Positions 1-1,739 of a stretch of 1,739 nucleotides of DNA are shown piece after piece. The stretch is from Naegleria gruberi. Taxonomy: Eukaryota. The DNA is taken from assembly GCA_000004985.1 (NCBI GenBank), contig GG739334.1; one strand, 5' to 3'. The first letter of the stretch is position 1, and every line of letters begins with the position of its first letter. The position numbers were made by a program, and so were the translations under genes. The notes under the pieces were generated by a model. The model made no database searches, had not been told where the DNA came from, and saw only the letters and a program-made list of their open reading frames with translations.

Positions 1-959
1 GCTCCGTGAGCTAATAATTCTTCATCAATAATGATATTAATGTCAGTACAGAACGAGACTGGAGGTTTTCCTGACAAGAAAAATTCAATTATTTCTTCCA
101 AAGTTTTATCATATGAATGGAGAGCATATGATAAAACCTTTCCTTTTCTTGGCGTTTTAGCATCTTTCAACTTGTGCCAATTCTCATCGAGGACATTAGT
201 CTTCTTTATCATTTCCTTTGCCTTTGTGGATCTCAACAAGGAAGAAGTGTGTGCAGTGAGGATAGCCTCAGTAATCTTTTGTAAAAACAACAGATTTTGC
301 ACATCTGGAGGAGTGCTGGTATTTTGACTAATAATACCTTTCAGTAAGGTAATGGAAACTTTTGGTTCCATATTTGGAGCATTGAAAGAATCCATTTTAG
401 TCTTGAAATAGTTTGTCATCTTGGTTGTACAGTTATGGATTTCCATGAAAAAGTAATCAATTTTTTTTGTAACAAGTTTTTCCATCAAATCGATAACTGG
501 TTTCTCTGGTGCGTTTAAGAAGTTATCATCCGAATTAGCAAGGGAATGCATAAATGAACCATGACCAGGAGCATCAGCAATATGGATTAACACTCTGGTA
601 AAGCTATTCCAGTCTAAATCGACAACTTTTTGCAATCCTCCGGCTACATCTTCAGCAATATCATATCCATACATAAGTGGACAATCTGCAATCGCTTTCT
701 CGATAACTTCCACTTGGTCAGTGAATGGATGAATAACAAATGGTACCTTATCATCAATATCAGCATAACCTACAAAGGCGTAACGAATAGTTTTCACCTC
801 TTGATTTTTGGAAGCAACTTCTTTTAAAACCTTTGAAATAACAGACTTGGCAGAATCCATCCATGTCTTCATAGAACTAGTAATATCTAACAAGAAGCAC
901 AAATCAATGTACTGAGGGTTGCGAGCTTGAATTTCTCGCATTTGCTTAACTGAAATCAT
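1..959 (-). CDS. 5' part of a vWA-domain protein. ATG at 959..957, and the frame stays open to position 1, so the 3' end lies outside the window. The vWA domain spans roughly 908..434 and carries a MIDAS-like D-x-T-x-S motif.
   Basis: Translating the reverse complement from 959 by hand gives an uninterrupted frame of 319 codons plus 2 nt. An in-frame TAA sits two codons upstream (968..966). The translation begins MISVKQMREIQARNPQYIDLCFLLDITSSMKTWMDSAKSVISKVLKEV...IRYAFVGYADIDD...GYDIAEDVAGGLQKV...RVLIHIADAPGHG. This follows the vWA beta1 / beta2 / (GGT-like loop) / beta4-TDG layout: DITSS at 887..873, GYD around 665..657, IADAP around 581..567. The track omits it because there is no stop codon inside the window. 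Codon use is biased and consistent (CCA, GCT, GGA/GGT, AGA). Confidence 0.8.
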   Translation of the reverse strand, partial: MISVKQMREIQARNPQYIDLCFLLDITSSMKTWMDSAKSVISKVLKEVASKNQEVKTIRYAFVGYADIDDKVPFVIHPFTDQVEVIEKAIADCPLMYGYDIAEDVAGGLQKVVDLDWNSFTRVLIHIADAPGHGSFMHSLANSDDNFLNAPEKPVIDLMEKLVTKKIDYFFMEIHNCTTKMTNYFKTKMDSFNAPNMEPKVSITLLKGIISQNTSTPPDVQNLLFLQKITEAILTAHTSSLLRSTKAKEMIKKTNVLDENWHKLKDAKTPRKGKVLSYALHSYDKTLEEIIEFFLSGKPPVSFCTDINIIIDEELLAHG

Positions 960-1024
960 GATGGATTATTTTTTTTAAAGTTGTCAAAGTACTTGATACG
1001 AATGCTGGGCATAAAGTTGGGCGA

Positions 1025-1047
1025 AACGTGATAGACAACGTGAATAG
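1025..1047. repeat. Tandem direct repeat AACGTGA-(A)TAG with 12-bp period: 1025..1034 and 1037..1047.
   Basis: gcgAAACGTGATAGacAACGTGAATAGtga. The heptamer AACGTGA is exact at 1025..1031 and 1037..1043, and each copy is followed by TAG. Each carries an ACGT core. Confidence 0.45.
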
Positions 1048-1059
1048 TGAAGTTTCAAG

Positions 1060-1128
1060 TTGTCAAGAATTAAGCGTTATGACCTGCATAGGAGTGATGT
1101 GATGATATGTTGGTGGAATTGTCAAGAA
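1060..1128. repeat. Exact 10-mer TTGTCAAGAA repeated at 1060..1069 and 1119..1128 (59 bp apart). A third variant copy TTGTCAAAG lies at 981..989.
   Basis: Read directly: caagTTGTCAAGAAttaag, ggaaTTGTCAAGAAgtcac and aaagTTGTCAAAGtactt. The reverse complement is TTCTTGACAA, which contains TTGAC(A). Three copies within about 150 bp of intergenic DNA suggest a repeated transcription-factor binding site. Confidence 0.5.
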
Positions 1129-1129
1129 G

Positions 1130-1163
1130 TCACGTTTTCAACCAAAAAATAGTCATCACGTTT
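1130..1163. repeat. Direct repeat TCACGTTT at 1130..1137 and 1156..1163, placed 53 and 27 bp upstream of the plus-gene ATG.
   Basis: agTCACGTTTtcaacc and caTCACGTTTgatta. Both contain an ACGT core. They lie in the proximal promoter of the plus-strand gene. Confidence 0.45.
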
Positions 1164-1182
1164 GATTACATCAGCAAGAAAA

Positions 1183-1739
1183 ATGACATCACGTACTCCT
1201 AGCAAAGTTCACTTGCTTGTCACATTGGAATGCTCATTCCTTCACAGTAACAAACTTGGAGAGACTGATAACACTATTTTGCACACGATTTTTGATTATC
1301 TTGCTAATTTCTGTGGCAAGTATTTAGTTAAAACTGAGAATTTGACTCTATGTTTGTTGAATAGTAAAGGAAACACGTGTACGAAACACGAATTTACAGG
1401 TAACAGAAAGTTTGAAGAACCTTTCAAACACTTAATACAGCAGTGTGATTTTGCAACCGAAACCAAGCCATTTTCGTTATTTGATATGTTCCAAACATGT
1501 CATACAATCTCATCAAAGGAAGTGGACACCCAAATGGTTGCAATTATGTTTTGTTCTTCTATCAGCTATGTACCATTGGATGGAGGTGAATTGATCTTTC
1601 TTCAAAATTTGAGAGAAAATTCTGTTAAAGTCAGTGTAATTGATTTTGATGTTGGTCAGAGTAAGGAACAGATCTACATTGATTGTATCAATTTGGGAAT
1701 AACCTATTATCAAACCCCAAATTTGAAATATCATCTTCT
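1183..1739 (+). CDS. 5' part of a protein with a degenerate vWA-like (Rossmann-like beta-alpha-beta) fold. It may belong to the TFIIH p34/Tfb4 family. The first ATG after an in-frame TAG (1150..1152) is at 1183, and the frame stays open to the window end.
   Basis: Codon-by-codon translation from 1183 gives 185 codons with no stop: MTSRTPSKVHLLVTLECSFLHSNKLGETDNTILHTIFDYLANFCGKYLVKTENLTLCLLNSKG...MVAIMFCSSISYVPLDGGELIFLQNLRENSVKVSVIDFDVGQSKEQIYIDCINLGITYYQTPN. The start context agaaaaATG is A-rich and Kozak-like, and there is no Shine-Dalgarno sequence. It has the same codon bias as the minus-strand gene (TTG/CTT Leu, CCA Pro, GGA/GGT Gly). Three stretches pattern-match my recollection of human p34: HLLVTLE (vs LLVIVVD), YLANFCGKYLVKTENLTLCLLNS (vs [20 protein letters not shown]) and IFLQNLRENSVKVSVIDFDVGQS...DCINLGITYYQTP (vs [20 protein letters not shown]...ACDITGGLYLKVP). 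This is a loose match from memory, not an alignment. Confidence 0.7.
   Translation, partial: MTSRTPSKVHLLVTLECSFLHSNKLGETDNTILHTIFDYLANFCGKYLVKTENLTLCLLNSKGNTCTKHEFTGNRKFEEPFKHLIQQCDFATETKPFSLFDMFQTCHTISSKEVDTQMVAIMFCSSISYVPLDGGELIFLQNLRENSVKVSVIDFDVGQSKEQIYIDCINLGITYYQTPNLKYHL

What the first reader, a model, noticed from the sequence alone, without database searches (positions are those of the whole stretch)
1..959. Large vWA-domain gene absent from the supplied ORF track (truncated at window edge)
The minus strand from 959 down to position 1 is a clean frame of 319 codons. It shows the hallmark von Willebrand A layout in order: a beta1 strand ending in the metal-site motif, an RYAFVGYAD beta2, a G-x-D loop, and an hIhIADAPGHG beta4. 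The track lists only three short ORFs, all antisense to this frame, so relying on the track alone would misdescribe the window entirely. The vWA domain sits at the N-terminus and is followed by at least 145 further residues (KLVTKKIDYFFMEIHNCTTKMTNYF...) that I cannot place in a known domain. Whatever is fused C-terminally lies outside the window.
Basis: partly seen in the sequence, partly recalled or inferred. Interest (0 to 1): 0.55.

Follow-up and report, generated by a model that had tools for sequence, protein, structure and literature searches.

The report
Naegleria vWA–alpha-kinase gene, front half
The window is a whole 1.7-kb Naegleria gruberi scaffold, and its minus strand encodes the first 319 residues of an ordinary eukaryotic signalling protein: a metal-binding vWA docking domain that most likely leads into an alpha-type protein kinase cut off by the scaffold end.

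Summary

Two corrections:
- The remaining 66 residues can be placed. They align with the linker of a 911-aa Naegleria lovaniensis vWA + alpha-kinase protein (38% identity over residues 6-319). The last 14 residues align with the first strand and the "PFAxG" motif of the alpha-kinase domain.

The missing C-terminal part is therefore most likely an alpha-kinase, as in Dictyostelium VwkA.

The window matches the 1,739-bp contig of N. gruberi XP_002668091.1 (207 aa, "predicted protein, partial"). That model stops too early.

A second unannotated orphan frame (1183-1739, + strand) diverges from a 223-bp spacer.

This is an ordinary new member of a known family, of low interest.

The parts
1..959 (-). 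ORF1: the first 319 codons of a protein-coding gene, open to the left edge of the scaffold (bases 1-2 are a partial codon). It extends the NCBI model XP_002668091.1 / EFC35347.1, which is 207 aa and marked partial.
   Evidence: Translation. 100% identity to P0001, which sits on a 1,739-bp contig. Chance statistics. Codon-position composition is the same before and after residue 207.
957..959 (-). Start codon ATG (Met1). An in-frame TAA lies two codons upstream.
   Evidence: No exon resembling the roughly 80-aa N-terminal extension of the N. lovaniensis paralogues exists anywhere in the window.
201..911 (-). vWA domain of the VWA_4 type, residues 17-253: beta1-alpha1-beta2-beta3-alpha2-alpha3-beta4-alpha4-beta5-alpha5-beta6-alpha6.
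873..887 (-). First metal-site (MIDAS) loop, D25-I-T27-S-S29, written DxTxS in this family.
   Evidence: D25, T27 and S29 are at least 90% conserved in the 63-sequence alignment A2. The loop lies at the end of predicted beta1.
648..668 (-). Second metal-site loop, G98-Y-D100-I-A-E103-D104 (family consensus GGDDxAED).
   Evidence: G98, D100 and E103 are invariant and D104 nearly so. ORF1 has Y97 where at least 90% of relatives have G.
558..599 (-). beta4 plus the third metal-site loop: TRVLIHIA-D129-APGHG.
   Evidence: D129, A130 and H133 are invariant. H126, I127, A128, P131 and G134 are at least 90% conserved. Predicted strand 121-128.
45..200 (-). Linker, residues 254-305. It is modelled with low confidence and contains the conserved PRKGK motif (residues 270-274, bases 138-152).
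   Evidence: pLDDT 47-67. Residues 254-319 alone match P0056 residues 330-399 with pairwise E = 5e-5 and do not match the kinase-less paralogue P0002. PRKGK is identical in P0056.
3..44 (-). Residues 306-319, INIIIDEELLAHG: the probable first beta-strand and first conserved motif (PFAxG) of an alpha-kinase catalytic domain, cut off by the scaffold end.
   Evidence: G319 aligns with P0056 residue 399, and Pfam Alpha_kinase starts there at residue 397. In a multiple alignment with 10 vWA + alpha-kinase proteins, this stretch falls on h-x-h-x-h...PFAxG, which is followed in them by xxRxAY.
333..341 (-). The point where the NCBI gene model ends (K207). The minus strand reads AAAG|GTATTA, which resembles a splice donor.
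   Evidence: In-frame homology to P0056 continues past this point: residues 208-319 alone give E = 1.9e-10. The vWA alpha6 helix is also encoded downstream of it. No intron therefore starts here.
960..1182 (.). 223-bp spacer between the divergent ORF1 and ORF2, presumably a bidirectional promoter region. It carries three same-strand copies of TTGTCAAR at 981, 1060 and 1119.
   Evidence: 0 of 200 shuffles of the window give 3 or more copies. The motif was chosen after seeing it, and it is not enriched in the N. lovaniensis locus.
1183..1739 (+). ORF2: a second gene fragment, open from 1153 with its first ATG at 1183, running off the right edge after 185 codons. No detectable relatives.
   Evidence: P of about 5e-7 for 195 open codons, and 0 of 2,000 shuffles reach that length. 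Its frame scores best of six under a codon model trained on ORF1, and the reverse also holds. No Pfam, PDB or database hit.

Best explanation
ORF1 is the 5' part of a Naegleria gruberi gene for a cytosolic vWA + alpha-kinase protein, the same architecture as Dictyostelium VwkA.

Shown here:
- Residues 17-253 fold as a vWA domain of the VWA_4 type, structurally closest to the integrin beta I domain.
- All three metal-site loops are retained: DxTxS, GxDxxED and HIADAP.
- Residues 254-305 form a poorly ordered linker.
- Residues 306-319 align with the first strand and motif of the alpha-kinase catalytic domain of the closest full-length relative.

Inferred:
- The rest of the alpha-kinase domain, and perhaps further C-terminal modules, lie beyond the scaffold end.
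- The vWA domain uses its Mg2+/Mn2+ site to dock an acidic residue of a partner protein. This would target or regulate a Ser/Thr alpha-kinase.
- By analogy with VwkA, the kinase may act at the contractile vacuole and on the actomyosin system, possibly under Ca2+/calmodulin control.

The public 207-aa gene model ends prematurely. The exon continues in frame to the end of the scaffold.
For: - Source and coding status: 100% identity to XP_002668091.1 on a 1,739-bp N. gruberi contig. The open frame is far beyond chance.
- vWA domain: Pfam VWA_4 E = 3.8e-6, 27.0 bits. Exhaustive phmmer finds 2,884 representatives at E <= 1e-3 and 1,196 at E <= 1e-10.
- Metal site: the family's conserved residues are retained.
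- Kinase continuation, alignment: tblastn and BLASTP against N. lovaniensis C9374_010400 (911 aa) give 38% identity for residues 6-319 against 84-399, E = 6e-60. That protein has Alpha_kinase at 397-584, E = 1.6e-39. The linker alone is significant at E = 5e-5 and is specific to the kinase-bearing paralogue.
- Kinase continuation, end of frame: the last 14 residues align with the start of the kinase domain in 10 vWA + alpha-kinase proteins.
- Spacing from vWA start to kinase start is about 290-300 residues here and in P0056, and 277 in Dictyostelium vWKa (vWFa 121-233, kinase 398-592; PMC2827801).
- The architecture is widespread: Arcella, Chromera, Rotaria, Fusarium and N. lovaniensis; Neurospora and Tetrahymena (PMC1420674 and PMC2827801).
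- Function of VwkA: contractile vacuole and Golgi localisation, indirect regulation of myosin II, and activation by Ca2+/calmodulin.
Against: - The kinase domain itself is not in the window. Only 14 residues overlap it, too few for any profile to score.
- VWA_4 domains also occur alone and fused to other modules: Hsp70-like, SecA_DEAD-like, and the kinase-less N. lovaniensis paralogue P0002.
- The vWA part of ORF1 is slightly closer to P0002 (46%) than to the kinase-bearing P0056 (41%).
- ORF1 lacks the roughly 80-residue N-terminal extension of both N. lovaniensis proteins.
- ORF1 has substitutions at two positions that are at least 90% conserved in the family, R66 to A and G97 to Y. The second sits next to the second metal loop. 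Altered or lost metal binding, or a decaying gene copy on a tiny orphan scaffold, cannot be excluded.
- No direct sequence comparison with Dictyostelium VwkA was possible. The functional analogy rests on shared architecture.
Confidence: 0.8

Rival explanations
1. ORF1 encodes a vWA-only protein with a lineage-specific tail, like N. lovaniensis C9374_010404 (P0002), or a vWA fused to some other module. Under this reading no alpha-kinase follows beyond the scaffold end.
For: P0002 has the VWA_4 domain and a 130-residue tail with no known domain. It is the closer relative over the vWA part, at 46% against 41%. VWA_4 occurs in several other architectures and very often alone.
Against: ORF1 residues 254-319 have no similarity to the P0002 tail, but match the linker of the kinase-bearing paralogue right up to its kinase domain (E = 5e-5). 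The terminal INIIIDEELLAHG fits the kinase-start motif of ten fusion proteins.
Confidence: 0.12
2. The scaffold carries a non-functional remnant: a pseudogene, a decaying duplicate, or an assembly orphan of a vWA + alpha-kinase gene. Under this reading it is not an expressed gene.
For: It is a 1.7-kb orphan scaffold. ORF1 has substitutions at two nearly invariant family positions, R66A and G97Y. It lacks the N-terminal extension of its N. lovaniensis relatives. No second N. gruberi protein was found in the searches.
Against: There is no stop or frameshift in 319 codons (P of about 1e-10). Codon-position bias is coding-like throughout. All metal-site residues and the hydrophobic core are kept, and the domain is modelled at very high confidence.
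Confidence: 0.06
3. The public gene model is right: the coding exon ends at K207 at a GT donor, and window bases 1-338 are intron.
For: The NCBI/JGI model stops at K207. The minus strand there reads AAAG|GTATTA, a plausible splice donor.
Against: The frame stays open for 112 more codons (P of about 3e-4). Those codons alone align in frame with P0056 at E = 1.9e-10 and with P0002 up to about residue 259. They encode alpha6, which completes the vWA fold at pLDDT of about 90. Codon-position composition is unchanged.
Confidence: 0.02

Closest known systems
Naegleria lovaniensis C9374_010400 (XP_044543997.1, UniRef 'Alpha-type protein kinase domain-containing protein', 911 aa; P0056)
   Same: 38% identity, collinear over ORF1 residues 6-319 (E = 6e-60). 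It shares the same VWA_4 domain, the same linker with the PRKGK motif, and the same position for the kinase start.
   Different: It has an 83-residue N-terminal extension that is absent here. It keeps R and G at the two family-conserved positions where ORF1 has A66 and Y97. Its kinase domain and about 330 C-terminal residues have no counterpart inside the window. Its neighbouring genes differ, so there is no synteny with ORF2.
[quoted passage not shown] 2005, as reviewed in PMC2827801 and PMC1420674)
   Same: The vWA domain lies N-terminal to the alpha-kinase domain, with similar spacing: vWFa from residue 121 and kinase from residue 398 in Dictyostelium, about 17 and 306-317 here. Both organisms are free-living amoeboid protists (contractile vacuoles in Naegleria are background knowledge, not tested here).
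   Different: ORF1 has almost no leader before the vWA domain. The kinase domain, calmodulin regulation and localisation are unknown for the Naegleria protein.
Naegleria lovaniensis C9374_010404 (XP_044544001.1, 'VWFA domain-containing protein', 438 aa; P0002)
   Same: It has the closest vWA domain, at 46% identity over residues 3-189. It lies 4 kb from the kinase-bearing paralogue.
   Different: It has no alpha-kinase. Its tail beyond the vWA domain is unrelated to ORF1 residues 260-319.
Pfam VWA_4 (PF25106), including roughly 220-residue stand-alone proteins from metagenomes
   Same: Shared conserved motifs: DxTxS, FVGYRD, GGDxxEDVxGG and HIADAPxHG. 30-40% identity over residues 15-195.
   Different: Most relatives are single-domain proteins. 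At least one (P0022) sits on contigs that look like giant-virus genomes, directly after an AAA-type ATPase gene. ORF1 scores only 27.0 bits, exactly at the Pfam cut-off.
Integrin beta-subunit I-like (betaI) domain
   Different: Only 15-18% identity. Integrin betaI domains are extracellular and inserted in a hybrid domain. ORF1 has no signal peptide-like leader and is fused to a cytosolic kinase. It is not a member of the integrin family.

Membership tests
vWA (von Willebrand factor A) fold superfamily | Rossmann-like alpha/beta fold with strand and helix order beta1-alpha1-beta2-beta3-alpha2-alpha3-beta4-alpha4-beta5-alpha5-beta6-alpha6 | tested here: met
vWA (von Willebrand factor A) fold superfamily | MIDAS metal site: DxSxS after beta1, an acidic or Thr ligand in the alpha2-alpha3 loop, and Asp after beta4 | tested here: met
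   By sequence, D25-x-T27-x-S29, D100/E103 and D129 are all present and are family-conserved columns. T replaces the first S throughout this family. Actual metal binding cannot be tested with these tools, and Y97 replaces a conserved G next to the second loop.
Pfam VWA_4 (PF25106) | Score at or above the curated gathering threshold of 27 bits | tested here: met
   27.0 bits against a cut-off of 27, E = 3.8e-6, which is borderline. Support comes from nearly all listed homologues carrying PF25106 and from 1,196 representatives at E <= 1e-10.
Alpha-kinase family (Pfam PF02816) | Presence of the alpha-kinase catalytic domain | not testable with these tools
   The domain would lie beyond position 1 of the scaffold. 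Only residues 306-319 overlap its first strand and the PFAxG motif. That stretch is too short to score against the profile, and there was no Pfam hit.
vWA + alpha-kinase (VwkA-type) architecture | N-terminal vWA domain followed by a linker that is collinear with known vWA + alpha-kinase proteins up to the kinase start | tested here: met
   Collinear with P0056 over residues 6-319 against 84-399. The linker alone gives E = 5e-5 and does not match the kinase-less paralogue. The multiple alignment with 10 fusion proteins agrees.
vWA + alpha-kinase (VwkA-type) architecture | [quoted passage not shown] | not tested
The biochemical properties are known only from the literature.
Ubiquitin-like domain (considered because of PDB hits) | A significant match of one beta-grasp unit, in a region not already assigned to another fold | tested here: not met
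   Single ubiquitin chains give only E of 0.1-0.9. The low E-values come from summing nine 3-bit matches to polyubiquitin. The matched stretch, residues 185-232, is alpha5-beta6-alpha6 of the vWA domain in the model.

The most novel reading that the evidence does not exclude
The N. gruberi protein may be a diverged vWA + alpha-kinase. It has lost the N-terminal extension of its relatives and carries R66A and G97Y next to the metal site. That could mean a changed docking specificity or a metal-independent vWA domain. It shares a 223-bp bidirectional promoter, with a triplicated TTGTCAAR element, with a lineage-specific orphan gene (ORF2). The two genes might then form a co-regulated, Naegleria-specific pair.
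Probability: 0.1. Interest if true: 0.3.

Novelty: new member of a known kind. Interest (0 to 1): 0.15.

Why it matters
The value is mainly in annotation.

- The public N. gruberi model (XP_002668091.1, "predicted protein, partial", 207 aa) can be extended to at least 319 residues. It can be re-described as the N-terminal half of a probable vWA + alpha-kinase.
- This adds Heterolobosea (N. gruberi, with an intact N. lovaniensis relative) to the lineages known to carry the VwkA-type architecture: Amoebozoa, fungi, ciliates and rotifers.
- If the kinase part is confirmed, Naegleria would offer a second amoeboid system in which to ask what the vWA domain of these kinases docks to. That question is still open for Dictyostelium VwkA.

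It does not reveal a new kind of system.

Tried and rejected
- Ubiquitin-like domain at residues 185-232. The PDB sequence search gave polyubiquitin E-values of about 1e-6, but these come from nine summed 3-bit repeats. The region is part of the vWA fold. Rejected.
- Pfam ExoX-like_C (residues 6-22, E = 0.011) and DUF6439 (E = 0.09). Both are sub-threshold and short. Rejected.
- ORF2 as a second, degenerate vWA domain. It looked that way by eye, but hhalign against the VWA_4 alignment gave probability 0.1%, there were no Pfam or PDB hits, and the single-sequence AlphaFold2 model was unusable at pLDDT 36. Unsupported.
- ORF2 as a relative of the C-terminal region of P0056. A 166-residue tblastn alignment appeared, but its Smith-Waterman score was reached by 10 of 300 shuffles. 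Rejected.
- An upstream exon encoding the N-terminal extension seen in both N. lovaniensis paralogues. Nothing in the window matches it.
- Synteny with N. lovaniensis. ORF2 matches nothing in the 21.5-kb locus L001.
- Exact look-up of the contig that encodes P0001. Not on record.
- Foldseek against AFDB50, intended to reach a Dictyostelium VwkA model. The library was unavailable.
- Rfam, tRNA and repeat scans of the window. No RNA genes were found, only short repeats.
- Literature search for Naegleria alpha-kinases and for PF25106. Nothing relevant.

Full report
**What is in the window**

The window is 1,739 bp at about 35% G+C. On the minus strand, positions 959 to 1 read as 319 codons without a stop. 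The frame starts at an ATG that sits two codons after an in-frame stop, and it runs off the left edge. From base composition, the chance of 319 open codons is about 9e-11. In 2,000 shuffles the longest open stretch in any frame never exceeded 178 codons. The ORF lister leaves out ORFs that run off an end. That explains why the frame is missing from a track of complete ORFs.

**Where it comes from**

The first 207 residues are 100% identical to "predicted protein, partial [Naegleria gruberi]" (EFC35347.1 / XP_002668091.1). Its only contig is 1,739 bp long, the same length as the window. The window therefore appears to be an entire small scaffold of a eukaryotic (heterolobosean amoeba) genome. 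The sequence cannot be extended within that assembly.

**The vWA domain**

- Profile and sequence searches:
  - Pfam gives VWA_4 (PF25106) at 27.0 bits, exactly the gathering cut-off (E = 3.8e-6). Classical VWA and Integrin_beta fall below threshold.
  - Homologues are abundant, and nearly all listed ones carry PF25106.
  - An exhaustive phmmer run over 1.84 billion representatives finds 2,884 at E <= 1e-3 and 1,196 at E <= 1e-10.
- Structure prediction:
  - An AlphaFold2 model built on a 63-sequence alignment has mean pLDDT 83 and pTM 0.77. Most of residues 15-250 score above 90.
  - The topology is canonical: beta1 17-25, alpha1 28-51, beta2 57-65, beta3 74-80, alpha2 83-91, alpha3 105-113, beta4 121-128, alpha4 153-164, beta5 168-173, alpha5 176-192, beta6 203-206, alpha6 218-253.
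- Fold comparison:
  - Foldseek against the PDB returns only integrin beta chains in the top 50, at E of about 1e-10.
  - The viral library also returns vWA proteins.
- Metal site:
  - The family's conserved columns include D25, T27, S29, G98, D100, E103, D104, D129 and the HIADAPxHG block. ORF1 keeps all of these.
  - ORF1 deviates at two positions that are at least 90% conserved. A66 replaces R, and Y97 replaces G. The second lies next to the second metal loop.

The "KLVTKKIDYFFMEIH..." stretch is alpha4-beta5-alpha5 of the same domain, which ends near residue 253.

**The public gene model is too short**

The 207-aa model ends where the minus strand reads AAAG|GTATTA, a donor-like site. Four results argue against an intron there:
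- The frame stays open for 112 more codons (P of about 3e-4).
- Those codons alone match the N. lovaniensis relative in frame at E = 1.9e-10.
- They encode the alpha6 helix that completes the fold.
- Their codon-position composition matches that of the first 207 codons.

**What follows the vWA domain**

I fetched the N. lovaniensis locus around the second-best hit, P0002, and ran tblastn with ORF1. The best match in that locus was not P0002. It was a neighbouring intron-less 911-aa gene. That gene is C9374_010400 (P0056), which UniRef names "Alpha-type protein kinase domain-containing protein".

- BLASTP aligns ORF1 residues 6-319 with P0056 residues 84-399, at 38% identity and E = 6e-60.
- Pfam places Alpha_kinase at residues 397-584 of P0056, at 136 bits. 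The window edge therefore falls two or three residues into the kinase domain.
- The linker alone (residues 254-319) matches P0056 at E = 5e-5. It has no similarity to the tail of the kinase-less paralogue P0002, even though P0002's vWA domain is slightly closer (46% against 41%).
- In a multiple alignment with ten vWA + alpha-kinase proteins, ORF1's last residues INIIIDEELLAHG fall on the pattern h-x-h-x-h...PFAxG. That pattern opens the kinase domain and is followed in those proteins by xxRxAY.

I conclude, with about 0.8 confidence, that the missing part is an alpha-kinase domain.

**Comparison with what is known**

The architecture is that of Dictyostelium VwkA/vWKa, which has its vWFa motif at residues 121-233 and its kinase at 398-592.
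- It affects myosin II abundance and assembly without phosphorylating the heavy chain.
- It is the one verified Ca2+/calmodulin-regulated kinase in Dictyostelium (PMC2827801, PMC7072818, PMC1420674).

The same reviews report vWA-alpha-kinases in Neurospora and eight in Tetrahymena.

VWA_4 domains are also found in other settings:
- alone;
- fused to Hsp70-like or SecA_DEAD-like regions;
- on contigs that look like giant-virus genomes, directly after an AAA-type ATPase gene.

The vWA domain alone therefore does not imply a kinase. The linker homology is what carries that inference.

**Likely mechanism**

This section is inference. The vWA domain presents a divalent-cation site that completes its coordination with an acidic side chain of a partner. 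This is how integrin and other MIDAS domains work, according to established knowledge of the fold. In a vWA + alpha-kinase, that docking would recruit or localise the kinase, or gate it. By analogy with VwkA, the pathway may concern the contractile vacuole and actomyosin. None of this can be tested with sequence tools.

**Surroundings**

- A 223-bp spacer (960-1182) separates ORF1 from a divergent second open frame, ORF2.
- ORF2 is open from 1153, has its first ATG at 1183, and runs off the right edge after 185 codons.
- ORF2 is far longer than chance allows. Its frame is the best of six under a codon model trained on ORF1, and the reverse also holds.
- ORF2 has no Pfam hit, no PDB hit, no database relative and not even a self-hit, so it is unannotated. 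It has no match in the N. lovaniensis locus. Two tentative resemblances did not survive testing.
- The spacer holds three same-strand TTGTCAAR copies, and 0 of 200 shuffles give that many. The motif was picked after seeing it and is not enriched in N. lovaniensis.
- No RNA genes were found.

**Verdict**

The finding is real and the vWA interpretation is right. The domain boundary needs correcting, and the unknown C-terminal partner can be named as a probable alpha-kinase. This is a new, partly annotated member of a known protein architecture in an ordinary eukaryotic genome. Interest is low.

Noticed in passing
window 1153-1739 (+), first ATG at 1183: A second long open frame (ORF2, 185-195 codons, running off the right edge) diverges from ORF1. 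It is statistically far beyond chance and shares ORF1's codon bias. It has no Pfam, PDB or protein-database relative and is apparently unannotated, so it looks like an orphan gene fragment.
   Followed up: partly
window 960-1182; motif copies at 981-988, 1060-1067 and 1119-1126 (+): The 223-bp spacer between the two divergent genes contains three same-strand copies of TTGTCAAR. Two of them sit inside a 14-nt direct repeat, TTT[A/C]AAGTTGTCAA. None of 200 shuffles of the window gives three copies. The motif was chosen post hoc and is not enriched in the N. lovaniensis locus. It may be a promoter element.
   Followed up: partly
window 333-341 (-): The NCBI/JGI model XP_002668091.1 ends at K207, at a donor-like AAAG|GTATTA. 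In-frame homology and the vWA fold continue past this point, so the public model is truncated by at least 112 codons.
   Followed up: yes
L001 (N. lovaniensis PYSW02000042.1): 3525-6260 (-) and 10001-11509 (+): N. lovaniensis carries two VWA_4 paralogues 4 kb apart. One is fused to an alpha-kinase (911 aa, no intron). The other is kinase-less (438 aa, with introns). Both have a related N-terminal extension of about 80 residues that the N. gruberi ORF lacks.
   Followed up: partly
L002 6001-6696 and L003 6001-6696 (JGI metagenome contigs of 209,772 and 130,232 bp): A 231-aa stand-alone VWA_4 relative (P0022) lies directly downstream of an AAA-type ATPase gene, with a 2-nt gap. Its neighbours include a fused type II topoisomerase, an RNA polymerase subunit and an SNF2/DEAD helicase. 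This context looks like a giant-virus (Nucleocytoviricota) genome carrying an AAA+/vWA gene pair.
   Followed up: no
window 666-671 and 762-764 (-): residues Y97 and A66: ORF1 has Y97 and A66 where at least 90% of 63 family members, including both N. lovaniensis paralogues, have G and R. Y97 is adjacent to the second metal-binding loop. This could reflect altered function or relaxed constraint.
   Followed up: no
window 100-140: A 16-nt inverted repeat (AAAGTTTTATCATATG / CATATGATAAAACCTT, 94% complementary, 9-nt loop) lies inside the linker-coding part of ORF1. It is probably coincidental.
   Followed up: no
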